Below, in pieces: positions 5,984-60,389 of a stretch of DNA of 64,000 bases (position 1 is its first letter; each line of letters begins with the position of its first letter). A program made the position numbers and the translations under genes. The notes below the pieces were generated by a model. That model made no database searches. It was given only the letters and a program-made list of their open reading frames with translations, and was not told the DNA's origin. Source of the DNA: Escherichia phage B9-1. Location: the sequence record OQ420740.1; one strand, 5' to 3'.

Positions 5984-7360
5984 ATGCCATATTTAGATAA
6001 AGTGGTAGATGTTACAGTTAACCTCGGAACCCAACCTATTGACACTGTAGGTTTCGAAACTCCCCTGTTCATCGCTATCCACAACAACTTTACTGAGCGA
6101 GCTCGCGTATATGCGGAGCTGGATCAGATGGTGGAAGATGGTTTCGCACAAGGCTCTGCAGCGTATGAGTTTGCAGCAAAAGCTTTTGGTGGTGTATTCC
6201 CTCCACAATATGTTATGATCGGCAGACAGGCCAAAGAAAAAACCACTGTAGACTTTAAAGGTATTGCTGCCGCAGCCGATACCGATGTCGTAATGACTAT
6301 TGCAAAAGGTGGCTACAATACCTCTCTGATAGTGCCTATCTCTGGTGGAACAGGTGCAACTCAGATTGCAGAGTCAATGAAGACTAAAATCGAAGCAGAT
6401 GATAATTTGGACGGTATCACTGTAGAGGCTGAAGAAGGTGTTATCACCATCACTGGTAACTGCACTGTTGGTTATCATACTGGTAACTATACAATCAAGA
6501 ATATTGCCAATTCTGAAAAACCTTCTACAGTAGTTGATAAGATCAATGCTGAGCGGGACAATTGGTACTTCCTGTGCCATGAAGACCACACCGACATTGA
6601 AGCATGTGCTAAGTGGGCTCAGGCCAACTACAAGCTGCACGTCTACTCTACTGCAGAAGATGTGACTGGCAAAGATAGTAACATCGCTACCAAACTGAAA
6701 GCTGCACAATATGACAGTGTTGGCATGTACGATCCTCGTGCAGATAAGGACTTCCCGGAGGGTGGTATCATAGGTGCTATGGCATCCAACGATCCGTCCT
6801 ACGGTGACAGCTTGCACTTAAAACAGATGCCAGGTGTGATTGCACCATCTCTGACTTTAACTCAGCGTATGGCTATTTGGGAAAACCACGTTAACTTCTA
6901 CAGAATGATTAACGGTGTTGGCGCTTTCTGGGAAGGTAAGTGTGCTTCAGGTCAGTATGCAGACGCTATTCGTTTTGCACACTGGATCAAGTTCAGATCT
7001 GAAGAATCCATGTTTGGGTACATGCATCGCCGCTCCAATATGGGTTTAAGCATGAAGATGTCTGATGATGATCTTCCGGTTATCAAGTCTGTTCTGATGA
7101 ACAACCCGATCAATACTGGCATTAAGAATGGCGCGATCCTGACAGGTTTTGACGAAGACAACAATGTGTTCTACGACCCGATCATCACAGTTCCTAAACG
7201 TGCAGAGATCCCAACCAATCAGTTGGCTGCTCGTGTTCTGGAAGGTGTGAAAGTAGAACTGGTGTATAACAACGCCCTGCACTTCGTTCGTATCCGGATC
7301 AACGTCCTTCTGGACAAAGTTGGTTCTAAATCCACCAATGCTGTTGCAATGACTGAATAA
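5984..7360 (+). CDS. tail sheath protein (candidate)
   Basis: 458 aa, strong RBS AAGAGGAAACAAATG, optimal codon usage; order 458 aa + 157 aa + chaperone + tape measure is the canonical sheath-tube-chaperone-TMP order of contractile tails. Confidence 0.55.
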   Translation: MPYLDKVVDVTVNLGTQPIDTVGFETPLFIAIHNNFTERARVYAELDQMVEDGFAQGSAAYEFAAKAFGGVFPPQYVMIGRQAKEKTTVDFKGIAAAADTDVVMTIAKGGYNTSLIVPISGGTGATQIAESMKTKIEADDNLDGITVEAEEGVITITGNCTVGYHTGNYTIKNIANSEKPSTVVDKINAERDNWYFLCHEDHTDIEACAKWAQANYKLHVYSTAEDVTGKDSNIATKLKAAQYDSVGMYDPRADKDFPEGGIIGAMASNDPSYGDSLHLKQMPGVIAPSLTLTQRMAIWENHVNFYRMINGVGAFWEGKCASGQYADAIRFAHWIKFRSEESMFGYMHRRSNMGLSMKMSDDDLPVIKSVLMNNPINTGIKNGAILTGFDEDNNVFYDPIITVPKRAEIPTNQLAARVLEGVKVELVYNNALHFVRIRINVLLDKVGSKSTNAVAMTE

Positions 7361-7370
7361 GGAAGACTAG

Positions 7371-7844
7371 ATGGAAACTCAAATTTTAACTCCTTATGCT
7401 TATGACCCTAAAAAGGTCAAACTGTACCTGATGCAGCAGCGTGTCACTGGCTTCGCTGCTGACACCAAGATCGTTGTTTCAAGAAACGAAGACAACATCT
7501 ACCCTCATGTTGGTGTGGATGGCGAAATGTCTGCGGCCCTGTCTCGTAACCAATCCGGTGTTATGACTGTGTCTTTGCAGAACACTTCTGTATGGAACGC
7601 TTACCTTTCTGACTGGCAGAAACAGGCATCTATTACTGGTCTGGTATTCTTCCCGGTTCTGCTGGAAGGTAGCCAGGGTCCTGGTATTGCTACAATCGGT
7701 TGGATCCAAAAACAGCCTGACCTCACTTACGGAACTGAAGTAGGTCAGCTGGACTGGGATATCGGTATTCTGGATGCATGGCTCAACCGTGACAACATCA
7801 CTGGTGCCCTCACTGGCCTCGCAGGTCTTGCAGGTATTATCTAA
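7371..7844 (+). CDS. tail tube protein (candidate)
   Basis: 157 aa, RBS AAGGAAGA, directly after sheath candidate and before chaperone/TMP; followed by terminator. Confidence 0.55.
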   Translation: METQILTPYAYDPKKVKLYLMQQRVTGFAADTKIVVSRNEDNIYPHVGVDGEMSAALSRNQSGVMTVSLQNTSVWNAYLSDWQKQASITGLVFFPVLLEGSQGPGIATIGWIQKQPDLTYGTEVGQLDWDIGILDAWLNRDNITGALTGLAGLAGII

Positions 7845-7861
7845 GGGCACACTTTAGTATA

Positions 7862-7896
7862 AGCCTCACCTTCGGGTGGGGCTTTTTTGCTTTTAT
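7862..7896 (+). terminator. rho-independent terminator after tube gene
   Basis: Stem CCTCACC / GGTGGGG (one G-T wobble), loop TTCG, then TTTTTTGCTTTTAT. Confidence 0.7.
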
Positions 7897-7935
7897 GGTT
7901 TTGACAAACTCTTTTGGATTGCTTGAAAGGTTAAA

Positions 7936-7964
7936 TTGACAATGCACCATAATCATGGTAAAAT
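7936..7964 (+). promoter_or_regulatory. sigma70-like promoter (TTGACA, 17 bp, TGGTAAAAT)
   Basis: Consensus -35 TTGACA at 7936-7941, 17-nt spacer, TAAAAT at 7959-7964 with upstream TGG; about 45 nt before chaperone gene. Confidence 0.6.
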
Positions 7965-8007
7965 ACACAAATATGGTGCACAACATGACTAATAAGGATG
8001 CTATAAA

Positions 8008-8481
8008 ATGGCTATAAACTTTAGACCTACAACAGAGATTGATTTAGCAGGGCACAACTTTGTGATCACCCACTGGGGACCGATGAAAGCAATGAAAAAC
8101 ATGCCTAAAATCGGTAAGATTGTGGCTGTCCCGCTAGGTGCTGTCGGTGGATCTATTCTCTCAGGTGGTCAAAATATGGCAGAGGTCCTTCCTACAGCCT
8201 TGGCTTACCTGTTCCAAGAACTCGATGATAACTCTATTGAAGAGTTATTTAAAATCTTGTTCGAAGATATTACCGTGGATGGTGTGGATAAGCTTAACCC
8301 TGATGTTGTGTTTGCAGGGCATTTGCTGGAGATGATTAAGCTGGCAGGTAAGGTTCTGGAGGTTAACTACGGCTGTTTTTTCACACAAGACGGTTTAGGA
8401 AGCCTTCTGGAGATGTTACAGCAGATGGGTATGATCCAGCAGGTGAACAATCTGGATCAGACTCCGGAAGAGCAGGAATAA
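8008..8481 (+). CDS. tail assembly chaperone (G-like)
   Basis: 157-aa acidic ORF between tube and tape measure genes; contains slippery heptamer T TTT TTC at 8376-8382. Confidence 0.6.
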   Translation: MAINFRPTTEIDLAGHNFVITHWGPMKAMKNMPKIGKIVAVPLGAVGGSILSGGQNMAEVLPTALAYLFQELDDNSIEELFKILFEDITVDGVDKLNPDVVFAGHLLEMIKLAGKVLEVNYGCFFTQDGLGSLLEMLQQMGMIQQVNNLDQTPEEQE

Positions 8482-8741
8482 GCAAGGTTGTTGTGAGGGC
8501 CAGTGAGTGGGCAGCCAAGAACAGTTCACTTAACTGGTTCGACTTTCTTTGGTGCAGGGTGCTCAAGAATTTCAAAGGGGAAAATTTTGAATCGCTAAAT
8601 CTTGCAGATATGGCGTATTTCCTGAAACTCTGTGAGTATCTTGATATCGAAGAATTCCTAGATACCGTCCAAAACAGGGAAATGGAGCGGGAGCAGAAGG
8701 CTGCCGCAGCTGCTGCGAAAGCTAAGCGCAGGAGAGGATAA
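8008..8741 (+). CDS. tail assembly chaperone frameshift product (G-T-like), predicted -1 slip at TTTTTTC 8376-8382
   Basis: The -1 frame is open with no stop from the slip site through 8741 and ends in a basic tail (AAAAAAKAKRRRG); matches the conserved G/GT arrangement upstream of tape measure genes. Confidence 0.45.
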
Positions 8742-8745
8742 TCTA

Positions 8746-8784
8746 AGGGCCGGATTCCTTTTCTGGGATCTGGCCCTTTTTATT
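8746..8784 (+). terminator. terminator-like / attenuator hairpin before tape measure gene
   Basis: Imperfect stem GGGCCGGAT...ATCTGGCCC followed by TTTTTATT, 12 nt before TMP ATG. Confidence 0.35.
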
Positions 8785-8795
8785 ATGAGGAAAGC

Positions 8796-11132
8796 ATGGC
8801 TACAAACAAAATAGTTGCCACAACAGTCAACAAGATTGGCTTTGAGATAGAGAACTCCTCCTACAAAAAAGCTGTAGAGAAAATTCGCAGTATTGGGAGG
8901 GAGTTCAGGAAACTGGGCGAGGATTTTAACTCAGCCAACCCAATGAGTAGATGGCAGGCAGTGGCTGTTAAAACCCAGCAAACAATGCAGCGGGTTGCCA
9001 GGCAGCAATCTCAGGCAAATGCTAAACTGCACAGGGAGAGCGTAACACAAGCCAAGAAAGAGGCTGCAGTAAGGGCTGCAATAGAACGTAGGGAGAACGC
9101 GAGACGTAAACAAGCTGTGGGTAATCTTACCGCTAAAAATCCAGAAATGGCTAGGATGCGTAAGTTCTACCAGCAGCAAGCTAAAGAGGCCAAAAAGGCT
9201 GCCAAATCTGCACCAGTGTCTTACGGCGGGTATAAGGCACCTAAGGCAAGAGTTTTGGCTAATGCCAAATCTTTCAAATATATCCCCGGTAACCCTAACA
9301 TGGGTGGTGTGGCTTCCGACCCTAATCTTGTGAAAGCTCAGACAGCGGCTATGAACCGTTACCATAGGCAGCTAAGAAGGGACAGTAAAGCTGGTATGGA
9401 TAATAGGCTTATGTCGGATCGTGAGGCAAGAAGAACCCACCTCTACAACTCTGCGATAAGACTTTCTGCCAAGTATGGGGCTGGATTCCGTGGAAGCTTG
9501 CCAGGATACTCAGAGTTAGAGTCCAGGTTTGCTCGCGGAGAGATGAAAAAGTCAACCTTTAACGCCCACCTGTCAGCTCTGCAGTCTGGGTTTAAAAGCG
9601 CCACCAGCCAAACGCTTACACTAGGCGATGCCCTGAGAGACTTACGTAGATCTGTTATTAATGCAACAGCTGCGTATACAGCTTTTTCTGGATTTGCTGC
9701 GGTGAACAGATCCGGTCACATGATGGAGGGGGCAAGTGCTGCTCTTACTGCTGTTACTGGAGATCCAAACAAAGCCAACAGTGAAGTTGCGTTTGTCCAG
9801 CAGGAGGCTATGCGTCTTGGTTTTGATCTCAAATCTGGTCTTCAGGGTTATTCTCAGATGGCGGTGAACGCCAAAAATCAGATGACAAACCAAGAGGTCC
9901 ATGAGCTATTCTCTGCATACTCACAGTATGCTGCTGCTTATGGTGCCGATGAGGTAAAATACCAGCGCGGTATTATGGCAATCCAGCAAATGCTTGGTAA
10001 AGGACAGGTAATGTCCGAAGAACTTAAGCAACAACTTGCTGAAGCGTTACCTGGGGCATATGAACCTTTTATCAAGGCCACCAAAGAGGCTTTTGGTCTT
10101 TCTGAACTCTCCATGGATCAGTTCATGGACATGATGAAGAAAGGCGAGGTTAAAACAGCCAAGATCATGAAGTATGTAGCTAAGTACATGAACGAGGCAT
10201 CTGCAGCTGGTTATGAAAGAATGCAGAAGTCTAACGTGCTGGCAGAAAACAGGCTGAAAACCTTCATCGAACTGTCTCGTCAGAAACTGTTCACCCGTTG
10301 GGCTGACGAACTAACAGAGTTCTATTATACACTGATCCGCACTGGTGAGACTTTGCAATTTGTGTGGGATGCCTCTGGTGATTTTGTTAGCGGGTTTGTG
10401 AGAGGTCTTAACTGGGTAGTTGGTGAACTGAACAACACTATAGTCAAGATCCGCATGTTTTTCCTTGAATGGGGGATTAAATGGGGATTCATAACAGCTA
10501 AGACGAAGGAATATTCTGAAGAGCTTCATGACACCTTTAGCTATGCTAAATGGGCAGGGTTTGCTGCTGCCATCATGCTGGTCGTCAACGCACTGACAAA
10601 AGGTTTTGTCATGGCATCCATGCTTGTAAAAACCTTTAAATTCCTTAGTTCTCTAAGAGGTGCAGCTGGAGCAGCAGGTGCAGCCACTGCAGAAGGATCT
10701 GGTGGCGGCGGCGCGGCAGGAAAAGGTGGAGGTGGCCTCAAAACACCTGGTGGTAAAGTTGGCATACTTGGCAAGCTGGGTATTATCGGCACAATATTAA
10801 GTGCCGGAGAGTTATTTAATGACCGTTTCAACCCGCTGAGTGAAAGAAATCAGCAACTGGATACTATCAGCGATATGATTCGCAAAGATATTATATCTGG
10901 AGGTAACGGGTTTGTTGATCCTTTGGACACCTTACCGGGCGGTACTCTTCCGTTGCCGGGTGGCCCTGGTTTTGCTTCTCAATTAAGAACTATGGAAATG
11001 CTCCCTTTAGAGATTAGTGATGGTAAAATCACGATTTCAATAGATGAGGGTGAGTTTAGCAAAATACTTGATGCAAAACTTGAGTGGGAGAACAACAAAG
11101 ATATTAACTTTATGTCAACAGATCTTTGGTAA
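8796..11132 (+). CDS. tail tape measure protein
   Basis: 778 aa after chaperone pair; long helical Q/A/K/R-rich N-terminal half, Gly-rich hydrophobic segment (GAAGAAGAATAEGSGGGGAAGKGGGG), low-expression codon usage. Confidence 0.75.
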   Translation: MATNKIVATTVNKIGFEIENSSYKKAVEKIRSIGREFRKLGEDFNSANPMSRWQAVAVKTQQTMQRVARQQSQANAKLHRESVTQAKKEAAVRAAIERRENARRKQAVGNLTAKNPEMARMRKFYQQQAKEAKKAAKSAPVSYGGYKAPKARVLANAKSFKYIPGNPNMGGVASDPNLVKAQTAAMNRYHRQLRRDSKAGMDNRLMSDREARRTHLYNSAIRLSAKYGAGFRGSLPGYSELESRFARGEMKKSTFNAHLSALQSGFKSATSQTLTLGDALRDLRRSVINATAAYTAFSGFAAVNRSGHMMEGASAALTAVTGDPNKANSEVAFVQQEAMRLGFDLKSGLQGYSQMAVNAKNQMTNQEVHELFSAYSQYAAAYGADEVKYQRGIMAIQQMLGKGQVMSEELKQQLAEALPGAYEPFIKATKEAFGLSELSMDQFMDMMKKGEVKTAKIMKYVAKYMNEASAAGYERMQKSNVLAENRLKTFIELSRQKLFTRWADELTEFYYTLIRTGETLQFVWDASGDFVSGFVRGLNWVVGELNNTIVKIRMFFLEWGIKWGFITAKTKEYSEELHDTFSYAKWAGFAAAIMLVVNALTKGFVMASMLVKTFKFLSSLRGAAGAAGAATAEGSGGGGAAGKGGGGLKTPGGKVGILGKLGIIGTILSAGELFNDRFNPLSERNQQLDTISDMIRKDIISGGNGFVDPLDTLPGGTLPLPGGPGFASQLRTMEMLPLEISDGKITISIDEGEFSKILDAKLEWENNKDINFMSTDLW

Positions 11133-57475: not shown

Positions 57476-58681
57476 ATGATTTTCATCTACGAACATTTCA
57501 AAACTCGTAAAGAAGCACGTGACCGCCGTGCAGAACTTGAGAAGAAGGGTTTCACATGCGCTATTGAGAAAGGTAACACAACCTGGACACTGGCAGTAGG
57601 TGCCCCAGAGTTGTTCGATCCTGACCGTGACAGCGTCTGCTACACCCGTGAGGATTTTGAAACCCGTGAAGAGGCCCGTTTATTTCGATATGGGCTGGAA
57701 GATAACGGTAAGTACGCCATGATCTTAGATTTAGGAGAAGGTTCCGTTAAACGTTGGGGTGTGGTATATCCACTGTGTGTTGTTCACGGTGTAGGGTTCA
57801 CTGGGGTAGCAATCAAGTCAGAAGAACCTTTAGTAGAAGTAAAAGACCCGGTGCTGGAGGTGGTGAGCAGTGTGTCTCAGCAACAGACCCGAAGCATCGA
57901 GCCTTTGGTGGTTATTTGCGGGGAACTCCTCCAGATCACCTGCAACGAAGGTATTTTTGAAATTCGCCGCAGTGAAAGTGAGGAAGTTTACCAGAAAGTC
58001 TTCGACCATATCTCTGTTCAGGAATATGACGAGGCAATTGGTGAAATCCTTGTCTGGCTGGAACGCAAGAATGAGTTCACCACACTTGCAGACAACCTGA
58101 TCATGAAAGATGGTAAGCTCTACTACTACGGTGTAGAGATGCGATCCACCATTGCAAAGAAAATTGAGAAAGATTATGCAGACGGAACACTGGATGACCG
58201 CTATGTGAAATTCCTCGTTCGCCTGCTACGCAATCCTTCTGCAAAATCTGTAAACATGCTCTACGATTTTATGCAGGCAAACGACATTCAGATTGCAGAA
58301 GATGGTCGAATCATTTGCTACAAAGGGGTTCAGTTTAACGGCGACAAGTGGGTGGATTGGCACAGTGGTAAAGTCCCACAATACCAGGGGGCTTTTGTAT
58401 CCATGCCTCGTAACTTTGTAGAGGATGATCCGGAAGCTGCATGCTCTTATGGCCTGCACTGTGCCAGCAAAGAGTATGCAAAGAGCTACGGAACTGTGAT
58501 GACGGTTATGGTTGACCCTGCCGATGTAGTTAGTGTACCTTACCAACACAACAGCGCCAAGTGCCGTGCATGCCGCTACGAAATCGTAGTAGCTCCAGAA
58601 TCGCGCAAAGATGGCGACCCAATTGAGTACGTGGTTGACCGCGACGGTAATACTATCGACATTATCTACGAGGAGGCGTAA
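57476..58681 (+). CDS. rIIB: rIIB-like protein
   Basis: ATG 57476 five nt after AAGGAGA (ORF-track TTG 57440 lies inside rIIA); C-terminal motifs LYDFMQANDIQIAEDG, ACSYGLHCASKEY and AKCRACRYEIVV parallel conserved T4 rIIB motifs as recalled. Confidence 0.6.
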   Translation: MIFIYEHFKTRKEARDRRAELEKKGFTCAIEKGNTTWTLAVGAPELFDPDRDSVCYTREDFETREEARLFRYGLEDNGKYAMILDLGEGSVKRWGVVYPLCVVHGVGFTGVAIKSEEPLVEVKDPVLEVVSSVSQQQTRSIEPLVVICGELLQITCNEGIFEIRRSESEEVYQKVFDHISVQEYDEAIGEILVWLERKNEFTTLADNLIMKDGKLYYYGVEMRSTIAKKIEKDYADGTLDDRYVKFLVRLLRNPSAKSVNMLYDFMQANDIQIAEDGRIICYKGVQFNGDKWVDWHSGKVPQYQGAFVSMPRNFVEDDPEAACSYGLHCASKEYAKSYGTVMTVMVDPADVVSVPYQHNSAKCRACRYEIVVAPESRKDGDPIEYVVDRDGNTIDIIYEEA

Positions 58682-60051
58682 TGGAAAAAGGGCAGTACGA
58701 TGTAGGCACAGATGCTGCCCTTGTTGCAATCATGAGCGGTGAGAATGTCTTCGTAAGTGGACCTGGTGGAACCGGGAAGACATATCTTATCAACATGATC
58801 CAGTCCATGTATGGAGACTCTTGCATAACGGTTGCCCCGACAGGGGTAGCCGCTTTAAACGTTAATGGAGCAACAGCGCACCGAACTTTCGATCTTGCCG
58901 CAGGTGTGAGCATGGAGTCAGACTGGACAGCAATAAGGGCAAAAACAGCAAAGCCTCTGAAAAGCAAGGCATTTACCATCCTGATTATCGATGAAATCTC
59001 TATGATCCGTGCTGACAAGTTCATAGAGATGGATAGAAAACTCCGCTTTCTTCGGAAAAATGACAAACCTTTCGGAGGCATTCAGGTGTTATTGTTTGGA
59101 GATTTCTACCAAGCACCTCCAGTTGTCTCTTCTATGGAGAAAGAAGCCTACTTCAACTTCTACCACACAGACCTGTGTTGCTATACAGAATCTTGGGAGG
59201 ATCTTAATCTTCACAACATAGCCTTAGTAGACCAGTTCCGTCAGGAATCTGTTCGCTTCGCCACAATGTTGAACTGTGTTCGTGAAGGTCGTCGCATAAA
59301 AGAGGTTGTAGCAGAGCTTAACACTCGTTGCTATCATGGTGGTGTCCCAACAGATGCCTTGACCATCTGTGCCACCAATAAGCAAGCAGAGGAGGTGAAC
59401 AGACGTTTCTATGATGCCATCAAGGCCCCAGAGAAGACCTACATTGGTAAAATGAAAGGTAAGTTCCCTTCCACACTACCTGTGGAGCAGGAAATGAGGC
59501 TGAAGATAGGGATGAAGGTTATGATAACCTCAAACGATGTTGACCCTACTCACAAAGTTCCGTATTATGTTAACGGGACACGTGCCACAGTGGTAAAATT
59601 CAAGACCAAATCCGTAGTAGTTGAGCTAGAAGACGGAACACAGGTTGAAATTGAGCCAAGATTGTGGGAGAATAACGAGTACAAACCTTCCCAGAGGTAC
59701 AATATTGCCGAAAGGAAGATGGAGAAGTTCATAGAGAGGGTTGTGATCGGGTCTTATGAGCAACTTCCTTTGAAATCTGGGTACGCAGTAACATCGCATA
59801 AAAGTCAAGGACTTACGTTAGATTGTTACAACCTAGACCTCGGAAAGAACGGAGCTTTCTCTCCCGGAATGACGTATGTTGCCTTGAGTCGGGTTAAGAC
59901 GATACAAGGAATAAACTTGTTGCGTCCATTAAGAGAGGTGGATATTATTGTTGACCCGAGAGTCGTAGAGTTTTATAATACAACTTTCCCTGGCTTAGAC
60001 GAGAAAGTCAGGAAAGATTTTGAAACTAGAGCAGAAAAGGGGGACGTATGA
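58681..60051 (+). CDS. Dda-like SF1B DNA helicase
   Basis: 456 aa; Walker A GPGGTGKT, Walker B ILIIDEISM, C-terminal helicase motif VTSHKSQGLTLD and VALSRV; coupled to rIIB stop (TAATG). Confidence 0.75.
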   Translation: MEKGQYDVGTDAALVAIMSGENVFVSGPGGTGKTYLINMIQSMYGDSCITVAPTGVAALNVNGATAHRTFDLAAGVSMESDWTAIRAKTAKPLKSKAFTILIIDEISMIRADKFIEMDRKLRFLRKNDKPFGGIQVLLFGDFYQAPPVVSSMEKEAYFNFYHTDLCCYTESWEDLNLHNIALVDQFRQESVRFATMLNCVREGRRIKEVVAELNTRCYHGGVPTDALTICATNKQAEEVNRRFYDAIKAPEKTYIGKMKGKFPSTLPVEQEMRLKIGMKVMITSNDVDPTHKVPYYVNGTRATVVKFKTKSVVVELEDGTQVEIEPRLWENNEYKPSQRYNIAERKMEKFIERVVIGSYEQLPLKSGYAVTSHKSQGLTLDCYNLDLGKNGAFSPGMTYVALSRVKTIQGINLLRPLREVDIIVDPRVVEFYNTTFPGLDEKVRKDFETRAEKGDV

Positions 60052-60389
60052 GTTTGTGGAGAAATATCGTTAACTACGTGTGTGGCAATCCGACTCCTGA
60101 AGAGAAGGATGTTGTGATTCACGATTTTACTAAAAGATCTCGTGAAAAAGATCTACTGCTAACAAAGGTGACTGATAAAGATCCTGCAGTAGGGGACTGG
60201 GCAGGTTTTGCGTTTACATCGGACAAATACACCTTTAACAAAGGTGACTACCTTGTTGTGGATTTTAACGAAGATATTGAGGGTGCTGAACCTTACTATC
60301 AAACCCTTATTGTTGCAGGGTGTGTTGATCTCTCTGCAGGCATGCACAGTTTGATTCTTTTTGAGCTTGACTCTGAAGACCTTGAGTAG
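60048..60389 (+). CDS. hypothetical protein
   Basis: 113-aa ORF overlapping helicase stop (ATGA). Confidence 0.5.
   Translation: MSLWRNIVNYVCGNPTPEEKDVVIHDFTKRSREKDLLLTKVTDKDPAVGDWAGFAFTSDKYTFNKGDYLVVDFNEDIEGAEPYYQTLIVAGCVDLSAGMHSLILFELDSEDLE

What the first reader, a model, noticed from the sequence alone, without database searches (positions are those of the whole stretch)
8376..8741. Candidate programmed -1 ribosomal frameshift in the tail assembly chaperone
A classical slippery heptamer T TTT TTC sits in frame at 8376-8382, 33 codons before the chaperone stop. The -1 frame is open from there to 8741 and ends in a basic tail. This is the conserved G/GT mechanism found before tape measure genes.
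Basis: partly seen in the sequence, partly recalled or inferred. Interest (0 to 1): 0.45.

Follow-up and report, generated by a model that had tools for sequence, protein, structure and literature searches.

The report
Unannotated tail-chaperone frameshift in rV5-like phage
This rV5-like E. coli phage almost certainly makes a short and a long form of its tail assembly chaperone by a -1 ribosomal slip at T TTT TTC, the well-known lambda G/GT trick, which public annotations of this phage group have missed.

Summary
T TTT TTC lies at 8376-8382 in the X XXY YYZ register of the tail assembly chaperone gene (8008-8481). The -1 frame opens three codons upstream, at 8367, and runs to a stop at 8739-8741. 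A slip there would give a 244-aa fusion.

The window is a Vequintavirus (rV5/FV3-like myophage). The chaperone lies between the tail tube and tape measure genes.

Comparative evidence supports the frameshift:
- The heptamer is invariant and the -1 frame is open for 92-128 codons in every complete Vequintavirinae, Stephanstirmvirinae, Felixounavirus and Aeromonas-phage locus examined.
- The preceding residue varies (Cys, Ser, Pro) but its codon always ends in T.
- Among 33 invariant degenerate codon columns, only the two Phe codons of the heptamer and one Gly codon just downstream use a single codon.
- Several genera have no ATG/GTG/TTG upstream of the conserved -1 domain, yet that stretch evolves like coding sequence.
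- A distant relative uses G GGA AAG instead.

No conserved stimulatory hairpin was found at the usual spacing. None of the 21 public records examined annotates the slippage.

Verdict: a real but ordinary new member of the G/GT class. There is no experimental proof.

The parts
7371..7844 (+). Tail tube gene (context, upstream neighbour)
   Evidence: Pfam KPP10_Orf10 at 4e-09 and phrog_280. Annotated 'tail tube protein' or 'virion structural protein' in relatives.
7861..7884 (+). Terminator-like hairpin with T-run after the tube gene
   Evidence: 10-pair stem followed by TTTTGCTTTT.
7936..7964 (+). Sigma-70-like promoter (TTGACA, 17 nt, TAAAAT, with extended -10 TG) ahead of the chaperone gene
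   Evidence: 11 of 12 consensus matches. The rV5 records carry a promoter feature in this region (H41/H50).
8008..8481 (+). Frame-0 tail assembly chaperone, short form (TAC-N, gpG analogue): 157 aa, 17.2 kDa, pI 4.5
8358..8362 (+). Shine-Dalgarno-like GGAGG, 13 nt 5' of the heptamer; a possible upstream stimulator (inferred)
   Evidence: Sequence. GAGG is kept at the same spacing in Avunavirus, L029, L026 and Stephanstirmvirinae, but not in Mydovirus (GAAGA) or most Certrevirus (GAAGT).
8364..8366 (+). Last stop codon (TAA) of the -1 frame; the -1 ORF opens at 8367, three codons before the heptamer
8376..8382 (+). Slippery heptamer T TTT TTC, the proposed -1 shift site (P site TTT to TTT, A site TTC to TTT)
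   Evidence: Present in every complete Vequintavirinae, Stephanstirmvirinae, Felixounavirus and Aeromonas-phage locus examined. Single-codon usage at F124 and F125.
8382..8481 (+). Dual-coding overlap: frame 0 encodes the acidic 32-aa tail of the short form; the -1 frame encodes a Gly/Ser/Asp-rich linker beginning H-T-R-R-F-R
   Evidence: Codon-position periodicity is flattened here, 1085/745/1173 against 770/417/1351 upstream. G129 GGT is invariant.
8382..8741 (+). -1 frame extension: 119 codons plus stop. The long form (TAC-NC, gpGT analogue) is join(8008..8382,8382..8741), 244 aa, 27.1 kDa
   Evidence: phrog_10409 at 8.5e-51 covers only the last 82 aa.
8478..8738 (+). Conserved C-terminal ('T-like') domain with a basic tail: ISKVV..A..(W/Y)A.K(N/H)SSL.WFD(F/Y)LWC(R/K)...
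   Evidence: tblastn finds it in 282 phage records. In the 42 codons after the frame-0 stop, substitutions concentrate at codon position 3.
8493..8495 (+). GTG used by annotators as the start of a separate 82-aa ORF; only a weak AAGG lies 5 nt upstream; not conserved
   Evidence: In the complete loci tabulated, the codon at this position (Val in Vequintavirus, Leu/Gln/Glu elsewhere) is not a start codon outside Vequintavirus.
8745..8778 (+). Terminator-like hairpin directly after the -1 ORF stop. It bounds the transcription unit after the extension, not after the frame-0 stop
   Evidence: 14-pair stem followed by TTTATTATGA. phiTE has an annotated terminator at the same place.
8796..11132 (+). 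Tape measure protein gene (context, downstream neighbour)
   Evidence: Pfam TMP_3 at 3.5e-18 and phrog_5255 at E = 0.

Best explanation
The window carries the tail module of an rV5-like myophage (Vequintavirus). One transcript, from the promoter near 7936-7964 to the terminator at 8745-8778, encodes the tail assembly chaperone. Most ribosomes read 8008-8481 and make the 157-aa acidic short form. A minority slip back one base when the TTT and TTC codons of T TTT TTC (8376-8382) sit in the P and A sites. Both tRNA-Phe re-pair with TTT, and translation continues in the -1 frame to 8741. This gives a 244-aa long form: the first 125 residues of the chaperone, a flexible Gly/Ser/Asp-rich linker, and a conserved domain of about 86 aa with a basic end.

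By analogy with lambda gpG/gpGT and P2 gpE/E+E', both forms would coat the tape measure protein, and the extra domain would recruit the tail tube protein. The slip sets the ratio of the two forms.

Shown here: the sequence architecture and its strong evolutionary conservation. Inferred: that slippage happens, its efficiency, and the protein functions.
For: Identity and context:
- The locus is 97-99% identical to rV5/FV3-like phages.
- The chaperone matches Pfam Phage_TAC_15 at 1.3e-23. The gene order is sheath, tube, chaperone, tape measure.

Conservation of the architecture:
- T TTT TTC is in register and the -1 frame is open for 116-128 codons in all 6 annotated genera and all 24 viral-contig loci. 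One short contig is cut off.
- The same holds in all 18 metagenome loci retrieved with N-terminal peptide patterns only, which are unbiased for the site. One short contig is cut off here too.
- The heptamer sits at the homologous position in Stephanstirmvirinae, Felixounavirus, an Aeromonas phage and Serratia phage Kashira. These are sister clades at about 29-37% chaperone identity.

Nucleotide-level selection:
- Among 12 diverse chaperone genes there are 33 invariant-residue degenerate columns. All 29 upstream of the site use at least 2 synonymous codons. Only F124 (TTT), F125 (TTC) and G129 (GGT) use one.
- The residue before Phe-Phe changes (Cys TGT, Ser TCT or AGT, Pro CCT), but its codon always ends in T.

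No independent start:
- In Mydovirus, Henunavirus, L017 and the Certrevirus clade, the first ATG/GTG/TTG in the -1 frame lies 11-30 codons after the conserved NSSL.W(F/Y)DYL motif.
- The 42 codons after the frame-0 stop still show differences of 20/13/69 at codon positions 1/2/3 in those start-less lineages.
- Gene callers give the downstream ORF 43-102 aa with many different starts. No in-frame fused form exists among 1.84 billion representatives.

Other support:
- Rheinheimera phage Barba16S has G GGA AAG, the lambda heptamer, in the same overlap instead of T TTT TTC.
- The -1 ORF opens only 3 codons before the heptamer, and the terminator follows the -1 stop.
- U/pyrimidine-homogeneous heptamers with a UUY A-site codon are frameshift-prone in E. 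coli (PMC4066793).
- The G/GT mechanism is established for lambda and is widely conserved (PMC5009743).
- The same frameshift has been argued for the related Vandenendeviridae and Andersonviridae (PMC12846349).
Against: - There is no protein-level evidence. The rV5 genomics and proteomics paper mentions no frameshift, chaperone or tape measure.
- None of the 21 public records inspected annotates slippage.
- No convincing stimulator was found. The local fold 5-9 nt downstream is no better than shuffles (z = +0.6). The 100-nt fold starts 19 nt downstream (z = -1.7). The consensus structure is only -4.3 kcal/mol. Rfam has nothing.
- The SD-like GGAGG is not conserved across genera.
- In this genus a GTG at 8493 with a weak AAGG could permit some independent initiation.
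- A single-sequence AlphaFold model was unusable (pLDDT 38), so the fold of the extra domain is unknown.
Confidence: 0.85

Rival explanations
1. Transcriptional slippage: RNA polymerase occasionally adds one extra U while copying the T6 run (8376-8381). Ordinary translation of those mRNAs then yields the same 244-aa protein.
For: The shift site is a homopolymer run, and a one-base insertion gives exactly the same product (sequence). Only a few percent of long form may be needed, by analogy with lambda's 30:1 ratio (PMC5009743).
Against: Efficient bacterial slippage is described for runs of about 9 A or T (PMC5009743). This run is exactly 6 T followed by C in every relative, and it has never lengthened. 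It always sits in the X XXY YYZ register. A distant relative uses G GGA AAG, which is not a homopolymer and works only by tRNA re-pairing.
Confidence: 0.07
2. Two separate genes: the downstream ORF is translated on its own from GTG 8493 as an 82-aa protein, as most public annotations imply, and the heptamer is incidental.
For: GTG 8493 has a weak AAGG 5 nt upstream. Many records annotate an 82-aa CDS, some with a ribosome binding site. PHROGs holds it as its own family, phrog_10409.
Against: The start is not conserved. Sister genera have no start codon until well inside the conserved domain, yet the preceding codons are under coding constraint. The conserved ISKVV motif lies upstream of the GTG. 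Annotated lengths vary (82, 88, 71, 51, 60, 43 aa, or nothing). This model does not explain the synonymous-site invariance of the heptamer.
Confidence: 0.04
3. Chance or artefact: the heptamer and open -1 frame are coincidental, or a homopolymer sequencing error splits what is really one long ORF.
For: In-register heptamers are common: 83 in the window's ORFs of at least 100 aa.
Against: Only 3 of those 83 have a -1 extension over 100 codons. One of the other two is an ATGA-coupled neighbouring gene. 117 phage records cover at least 80% of the 901-base region at 95% identity or more. All of the roughly 60 loci examined, from different laboratories and from metagenomes, have exactly six T. They also have a frame-0 stop 12-36 codons downstream of the heptamer and a conserved frame-0 tail.
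Confidence: 0.02

Closest known systems
Phage lambda gpG/gpGT programmed -1 frameshift (Levin et al. 1993; Xu et al. 2004, 2013, 2014, as summarised in PMC5009743)
   Same: Two overlapping ORFs lie between the major tail (tube) gene and the tape measure gene. The shift occurs at an X XXY YYZ heptamer. The short form is abundant and the long form, with an extra C-terminal domain, is rare. No strong RNA stimulator is evident. Neither product is expected in virions.
   Different: - The heptamer is T TTT TTC rather than G GGA AAG.
- By my recollection the shift site in lambda lies much closer to the end of G. Here it lies 32 sense codons before the frame-0 stop, so about 100 nt are dual-coding and the short form has its own 32-aa acidic tail.
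- The host virion is a contractile-tailed myophage.
- There is no detectable sequence similarity to gpG or gpT.
Phage P2 gpE/gpE+E' frameshift in the FETUD tail operon (Christie et al. 2002; recalled from memory, not read here)
   Same: It is a myovirus tail chaperone pair upstream of the tape measure gene. By my recollection it uses a T-rich heptamer (T TTT TTG). Efficiency is reported as 2-3 times that of lambda (PMC5009743).
   Different: The protein family is different, since no P2-type chaperone family appeared in the Pfam or PHROGs hits. The last base of the heptamer differs. Here the chaperone unit has its own promoter and terminator.
Predicted TAC-N/TAC-NC -1 frameshift of Vandenendeviridae (Pseudomonas phage Adele) and Andersonviridae (PMC12846349, 2025)
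   Same: These are related virion modules: that paper groups Vequintavirinae with these clades. The downstream 'hypothetical protein' is routinely mis-annotated, the -1 frame is uninterrupted in all genomes, and there is a conserved T-run motif (GTTTTT) near the 3' end of TAC-N. My own check found T TTT TTC at the homologous spot in Felixounavirus skuden and G GTT TTT in Pseudomonas phage XD2.
   Different: In the passages I read, that paper does not report the frameshift for Vequintavirinae. Here the motif is a full canonical heptamer, and the analysis adds synonymous-site and start-codon evidence.
E. coli dnaX -1 frameshift (A AAA AAG with an upstream SD-like element and a downstream hairpin)
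   Same: It is a -1 shift on a homopolymeric heptamer in E. coli ribosomes. The window has a GGAGG 13 nt upstream. This is within the 10-14 nt range I recall as stimulatory (Larsen et al. 1994, from memory).
   Different: There is no hairpin at 5-9 nt. The SD-like element is not conserved among genera. The expected efficiency is low rather than about 50%.

Membership tests
G/GT-type tail assembly chaperone with programmed -1 frameshift | Gene pair located between the major tail/tube gene and the tape measure gene | tested here: met
   Tube 7371-7844, chaperone 8008-8481, -1 ORF to 8741, tape measure 8796-11132. The same order holds in all annotated relatives.
G/GT-type tail assembly chaperone with programmed -1 frameshift | Upstream ORF is a tail assembly chaperone | tested here: met
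   Pfam PF21822 Phage_TAC_15 at 1.3e-23 (84 bits, cut-off 22); phrog_3840 'tail assembly chaperone' at 9.9e-69. This rests on family names, not on tested function.
G/GT-type tail assembly chaperone with programmed -1 frameshift | Canonical slippery heptamer X XXY YYZ in frame-0 register inside the overlap of the two ORFs | tested here: met
   T TTT TTC at 8376-8382. The overlap window is 8367-8481, and this is the only such heptamer in the gene.
G/GT-type tail assembly chaperone with programmed -1 frameshift | Downstream ORF in the -1 frame lacks its own conserved start and ribosome binding site | tested here: met
   No ATG/GTG/TTG lies before the conserved domain in Mydovirus, Henunavirus, L017 or the Certrevirus clade. 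The Vequintavirus GTG 8493 is genus-specific with a weak AAGG.
G/GT-type tail assembly chaperone with programmed -1 frameshift | Shift site and two-ORF arrangement conserved among diverged relatives, beyond what protein coding requires | tested here: met
   Searches show invariance in about 60 loci. Codon usage is single-codon only at the heptamer and G129. The residue before it changes while the T is kept.
G/GT-type tail assembly chaperone with programmed -1 frameshift | Both a short and a frameshifted long protein are made in a fixed ratio, and both are needed for tail assembly | not testable with these tools
   This needs proteomics or genetics. No report was found in the searchable literature.
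G/GT-type tail assembly chaperone with programmed -1 frameshift | The common N-domain binds the tape measure protein, and the extension binds the tail tube protein | not testable with these tools
   The single-sequence structure model failed (pLDDT 38). No PDB relative was found.
dnaX/IS-type stimulated -1 frameshift | Stable hairpin or pseudoknot 5-9 nt 3' of the heptamer | tested here: not met
   The fold of 8383-8440 has z = +0.6. The best structure starts 19 nt downstream, with z = -1.7. The consensus fold is -4.3 kcal/mol. There is no Rfam hit.
dnaX/IS-type stimulated -1 frameshift | SD-like element about 10-14 nt 5' of the heptamer | tested here: inconclusive
   GGAGG at 8358-8362 has 13-nt spacing in the window. 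It is kept in some genera and lost in Mydovirus and most Certrevirus.
Transcriptional slippage site | Long homopolymer run (about 8-9 or more A/T) whose length, not register, matters | tested here: not met
   The run is exactly T6 in all loci and always in register. Barba16S uses the non-homopolymeric G GGA AAG. Runs of 9 are cited for bacterial slippage.

The most novel reading that the evidence does not exclude
Frameshift efficiency may be set by a long-range mRNA helix rather than a local hairpin.

In the sister genera Seunavirus, Mydovirus, Henunavirus, Avunavirus and Certrevirus, bases +6 to +12 after the heptamer (GACGGT) pair with ACCGTC lying 4-10 nt beyond the frame-0 stop, about 100 nt away. 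Two pairs show compensatory changes. 79.5% of cells are paired, against 17-50% when the partner is slid, and 0 of 500 shuffles reach the covariation score.

Such a helix starts at the ideal spacer distance. Ribosomes terminating at the frame-0 stop would open it, which could couple the short:long ratio to ribosome traffic.

The window's own genus has deleted the homologous 3' arm. Only a different, untestable closing helix is predicted there (8384-8397 with 8478-8495, z about -1.9).
Probability: 0.12. Interest if true: 0.45.

Novelty: new member of a known kind. Interest (0 to 1): 0.2.

Why it matters
The practical value is annotation. The -1 domain occurs in 282 deposited phage genomes (Vequintavirinae and Stephanstirmvirinae). 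Many of these are therapy or biocontrol candidates against E. coli O157, Salmonella, Klebsiella and Cronobacter. None of the 21 records I opened annotates the slippage. They list a truncated 'hypothetical protein' or nothing where the C-terminal domain of the long chaperone is encoded. The correct feature in this window is join(8008..8382,8382..8741) with ribosomal slippage.

Biologically, the same T TTT TTC at the same position is shared by rV5-like, phi92-like and FelixO1-like myophages and by an Aeromonas phage. The frameshift is therefore ancestral to a large group of virulent myoviruses. It also gives a clean E. coli system for studying a stimulator-poor U UUU UUC site with an unusually long (about 100 nt) dual-coding overlap. 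It does not change the understanding of the mechanism.

Tried and rejected
- Local downstream stimulator: folds of 8383-8440 and 8383-8482 and the RNAalifold consensus of 12 genera gave no significant structure at 5-9 nt. Rfam at a permissive threshold found only two chance hits.
- Structure of the long form: AlphaFold2 on the single fusion sequence gave pLDDT 37.8 and was discarded without a fold search.
- PDB sequence searches of both parts found nothing meaningful.
- In-frame fused homologue (Rosetta-stone test): HMMER against 1.84 billion representatives found only 43-102 aa fragments. A few 700-1300 aa proteins also matched, but these are DUF285/leucine-rich-repeat proteins and were rejected as compositional matches.
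- Outer and inner segments of the long closing stem predicted in Seunavirus (CGAAA/UUUCG and UUUCGC/GCGGAG): synonymous changes in L004, L029, L050 and L059 break the outer one. Only the middle helix was kept as a lead.
- The other long -1 extension in the window that I followed up (AAAGGGG at 60036) is simply the ATGA-overlapping next gene, 60048-60389.
- Literature: searches for rV5, PVP-SE1, Vequintavirinae or Vequintavirus together with frameshift found no prior description for this subfamily. The library lacks most subscription journals, so absence is not proof.

Full report
**What is there**

The window matches rV5/FV3-like Escherichia myophages (genus Vequintavirus) at 97-99% nucleotide identity across 7900-8800. 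The local gene order is as follows:
- tail sheath, 5984-7360
- tail tube, 7371-7844
- a 157-aa ORF, 8008-8481
- an open -1 frame running to 8741
- tape measure protein, 8796-11132

The 157-aa ORF is a tail assembly chaperone by family assignment: Pfam Phage_TAC_15 at 1.3e-23 and phrog_3840 at 1e-68. A strong sigma-70-like promoter (7936-7964, 11 of 12 matches) lies upstream of the chaperone ORF. Terminator-like hairpins at 7861-7884 and 8745-8778 bracket the chaperone and the -1 ORF together. The downstream terminator sits just after the -1 stop, not after the frame-0 stop.

**Check of the observation**

The codons are TGT TTT TTC (C123 F124 F125), so T TTT TTC at 8376-8382 is in the X XXY YYZ register. 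The -1 frame opens at 8367, after the TAA at 8364-8366, three codons before the heptamer. From 8382 it runs for 119 codons to the stop at 8739-8741. The fusion join(8008..8382,8382..8741) is 244 aa and 27.1 kDa, against 17.2 kDa for the short form. It ends in a basic tail, KAKRRRG.

This is the only in-register heptamer in the gene. Of 83 in-register heptamers in all ORFs of at least 100 aa in the window, three have a -1 extension over 100 codons. One of the other two is an ATGA-coupled neighbouring gene; the other, in a 118-aa ORF on the opposite strand, was not followed up. TTTTTTC is under-represented in the window, with 9 found against 18.3 +/- 4.4 expected.

**Comparative evidence**

I examined about 60 related loci:
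- 21 annotated GenBank/RefSeq records
- 24 IMG/VR contigs
- 18 metagenome contigs, retrieved with N-terminal peptide patterns that cannot bias the shift site

In every complete Vequintavirinae locus, T TTT TTC is present in register at the homologous position, and the -1 frame is open for 116-128 codons. This covers Vequintavirus, Seunavirus, Mydovirus, Henunavirus, Avunavirus, Certrevirus and Serratia phage Kashira, down to about 37-43% chaperone identity.

The same heptamer at the same position (...NY/F-G-x-F-F...) occurs outside the subfamily, at about 29-35% chaperone identity, with -1 extensions of 92-128 codons:
- Stephanstirmvirinae: PHB05, phi1_175008 and ZCKP1
- Felixounavirus skuden
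- Aeromonas phage PhAER-4

Three results show selection on the nucleotides rather than on the protein.
- First, 12 diverse chaperone genes give 33 invariant-residue degenerate codon columns. All 29 upstream of the site use two to four synonymous codons. Only F124 (TTT), F125 (TTC) and G129 (GGT) use a single codon.
- Second, the residue preceding Phe-Phe varies (Cys TGT, Ser TCT or AGT, Pro CCT), but its codon always ends in T, which preserves the heptamer.
- Third, Rheinheimera phage Barba16S has lost T TTT TTC. It carries G GGA AAG, the lambda heptamer, 19 codons before its stop, with a 93-codon -1 extension.

**The downstream ORF is not an independent gene**

In the window a GTG at 8493 with a weak AAGG could start an 82-aa protein, and many records annotate it that way. 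That start is specific to this genus. In Mydovirus, Henunavirus, L017 and the Certrevirus clade, the first ATG/GTG/TTG in the -1 frame lies 11-30 codons after the conserved NSSL.W(F/Y)DYL motif.

The 42 codons after the frame-0 stop still evolve as coding sequence in those lineages. Differences at codon positions 1/2/3 are 20/13/69. The conserved ISKVV motif also lies upstream of the GTG.

Annotators give the downstream ORF 82, 88, 71, 51, 60 or 43 aa, or nothing at all. None of the 21 records has a joined CDS. A full HMMER scan of 1.84 billion representative proteins found only 43-102 aa fragments with different N-termini and no in-frame fused form.

**The overlap**

The shift site lies 32 sense codons before the frame-0 stop, so about 100 nt are read in two frames. 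Frame 0 there encodes a conserved, acidic, helix-like tail (G.(L/F)..L...LG....V..LD). The -1 frame encodes a conserved R-F-R followed by a Gly/Ser/Asp-rich linker. Codon-position periodicity is flattened in this zone: 1085/745/1173, against 770/417/1351 just upstream. This is consistent with dual coding or with relaxed constraint on the frame-0 tail.

**Stimulators**

No significant structure lies at the canonical 5-9 nt spacing. The fold of 8383-8440 has z = +0.6. The 100-nt fold has z = -1.7 and begins 19 nt downstream. The consensus fold of 12 genera is -4.3 kcal/mol. Rfam has nothing.

A GGAGG at 8358-8362 sits 13 nt upstream, within the range I recall as stimulatory for dnaX. It is lost in Mydovirus and most Certrevirus, so its role is uncertain. 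In E. coli, heptamers with a UUY A-site codon and all-pyrimidine X and Z are among the frameshift-prone class, and 39 of the 64 motifs tested (61%) shifted above background without a stimulator (PMC4066793). A low-efficiency shift without a stimulator, as in lambda, is therefore plausible.

**A lead noticed on the way**

In the sister genera, but not in Vequintavirus, bases +6 to +12 after the heptamer (GACGGT) are complementary to ACCGTC lying 4-10 nt past the frame-0 stop.
- Compensatory changes occur in Hena1 (GGCGGT/ACCGCC) and in the Certrevirus clade (GAGCGG/CCGCTC).
- 79.5% of cells are paired, against 17-50% when the partner is slid.
- 0 of 500 shuffles reach the covariation score.

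The independent events are few. Both arms are coding. L017 and Kashira break the helix. The window has deleted the homologous 3' arm. I report it as a hypothesis only.

**Mechanism and rivals**

The best explanation is -1 programmed ribosomal frameshifting at T TTT TTC. It would produce a major 157-aa form and a minor 244-aa form of the tail assembly chaperone, working like lambda gpG/gpGT (PMC5009743). My confidence is 0.85.

- Transcriptional slippage on the T6 run would give the same protein (confidence 0.07). It is disfavoured by the fixed length of six, the fixed register, and the G GGA AAG replacement in Barba16S. Bacterial slippage is described for runs of about nine.
- Independent initiation at GTG 8493 as the sole route (0.04) and chance or sequencing artefact (0.02) are contradicted by the comparative data.

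**Comparison with what is known, and novelty**

The G/GT frameshift is a textbook feature of long-tailed phages. A 2025 paper argues for the same event, with a conserved GTTTTT motif, in the related Vandenendeviridae and Andersonviridae. It notes that it was suspected in Mooglevirus annotations (PMC12846349).

I found no statement of it for rV5-like phages. The rV5 paper does not mention it, nor do the other searches. No deposited record I opened annotates it. It is therefore a new, well-supported member of a known kind. It is useful for correcting annotation across 282 records that carry the -1 domain, and it shows that the site is ancestral to a large myophage group. It is not surprising to a specialist. 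Interest: 0.2.

**Limits**

All evidence is comparative and sequence-based. The efficiency, the existence of the fusion protein and the binding partners are untested. The structure prediction failed for lack of an allowed alignment. The literature library omits most subscription journals.

Noticed in passing
L003:1555-1560 with 1652-1657 (PVP-SE1), and equivalent positions in L004-L007, L022-L027, L029, L050, L054, L059; absent from window 8389-8394: A candidate long-range helix in sister genera pairs GACGGT, 7 nt after the heptamer, with ACCGTC just after the frame-0 stop, about 100 nt away. Two pairs switch between G-C and A-U. 79.5% of cells are paired against 17-50% when slid. There are few independent events, and both arms are coding.
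   Followed up: partly
window 8384-8397 with 8478-8495, enclosing 8402-8473: RNAfold of 8383-8500 predicts a closing helix (CACAA/UUGUG, GAC/GUU, GUUUA/UAAGC). It joins the bases right after the heptamer to the frame-0 stop and GTG 8493 region, around an inner two-helix structure. The z-score is about -1.9. It is not conserved in the 70%-identity relative L011 and cannot be tested by covariation.
   Followed up: partly
L038:1230-1236 (Rheinheimera phage Barba16S): A distant homologue of the chaperone has G GGA AAG, the lambda G/GT heptamer, instead of T TTT TTC. It lies 19 codons before the stop, with a 93-codon -1 extension. This looks like a replacement of one slippery site by another.
   Followed up: partly
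L037:1200-1215 (Pseudomonas phage XD2, Pakpunavirus-like): The homologous position reads TCG GTT TTT ACT (G GTT TTT). This is not a perfect X XXY YYZ heptamer. It matches the 'GTTTTT' motif reported for Vandenendeviridae in PMC12846349.
   Followed up: no
window, whole (both strands): TTTTTTC occurs 9 times against 18.3 +/- 4.4 expected from dinucleotide shuffles. Only two copies are on the + strand, and only the one at 8376 is in the slippery register. This suggests general avoidance of the motif in coding sequence.
   Followed up: no
window 60036-60389: AAAGGGG lies three codons before the stop of ORF 58681-60051, with a 115-codon -1 ORF. It is explained by the next gene, 60048-60389, starting at an ATGA overlap. 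It is not a frameshift candidate.
   Followed up: yes
public records of relatives (e.g. L002 2094-2342, L003 1662-1928, L006 1524-1739, L007 1588-1743, L061 721-852, L062 704-942): The -1 extension is annotated inconsistently across 21 records, as separate ORFs of 82, 88, 71, 51, 60, 43 or 31+43 aa, or not at all, and never as a joined CDS. The PVP-SE1 CDS begins at a position that is not ATG, GTG or TTG by my count.
   Followed up: partly
window 1-64000: ARAGORN finds no tRNA genes in the window, so any phage-encoded tRNA that could influence decoding at the Phe codons is not in this stretch.
   Followed up: no
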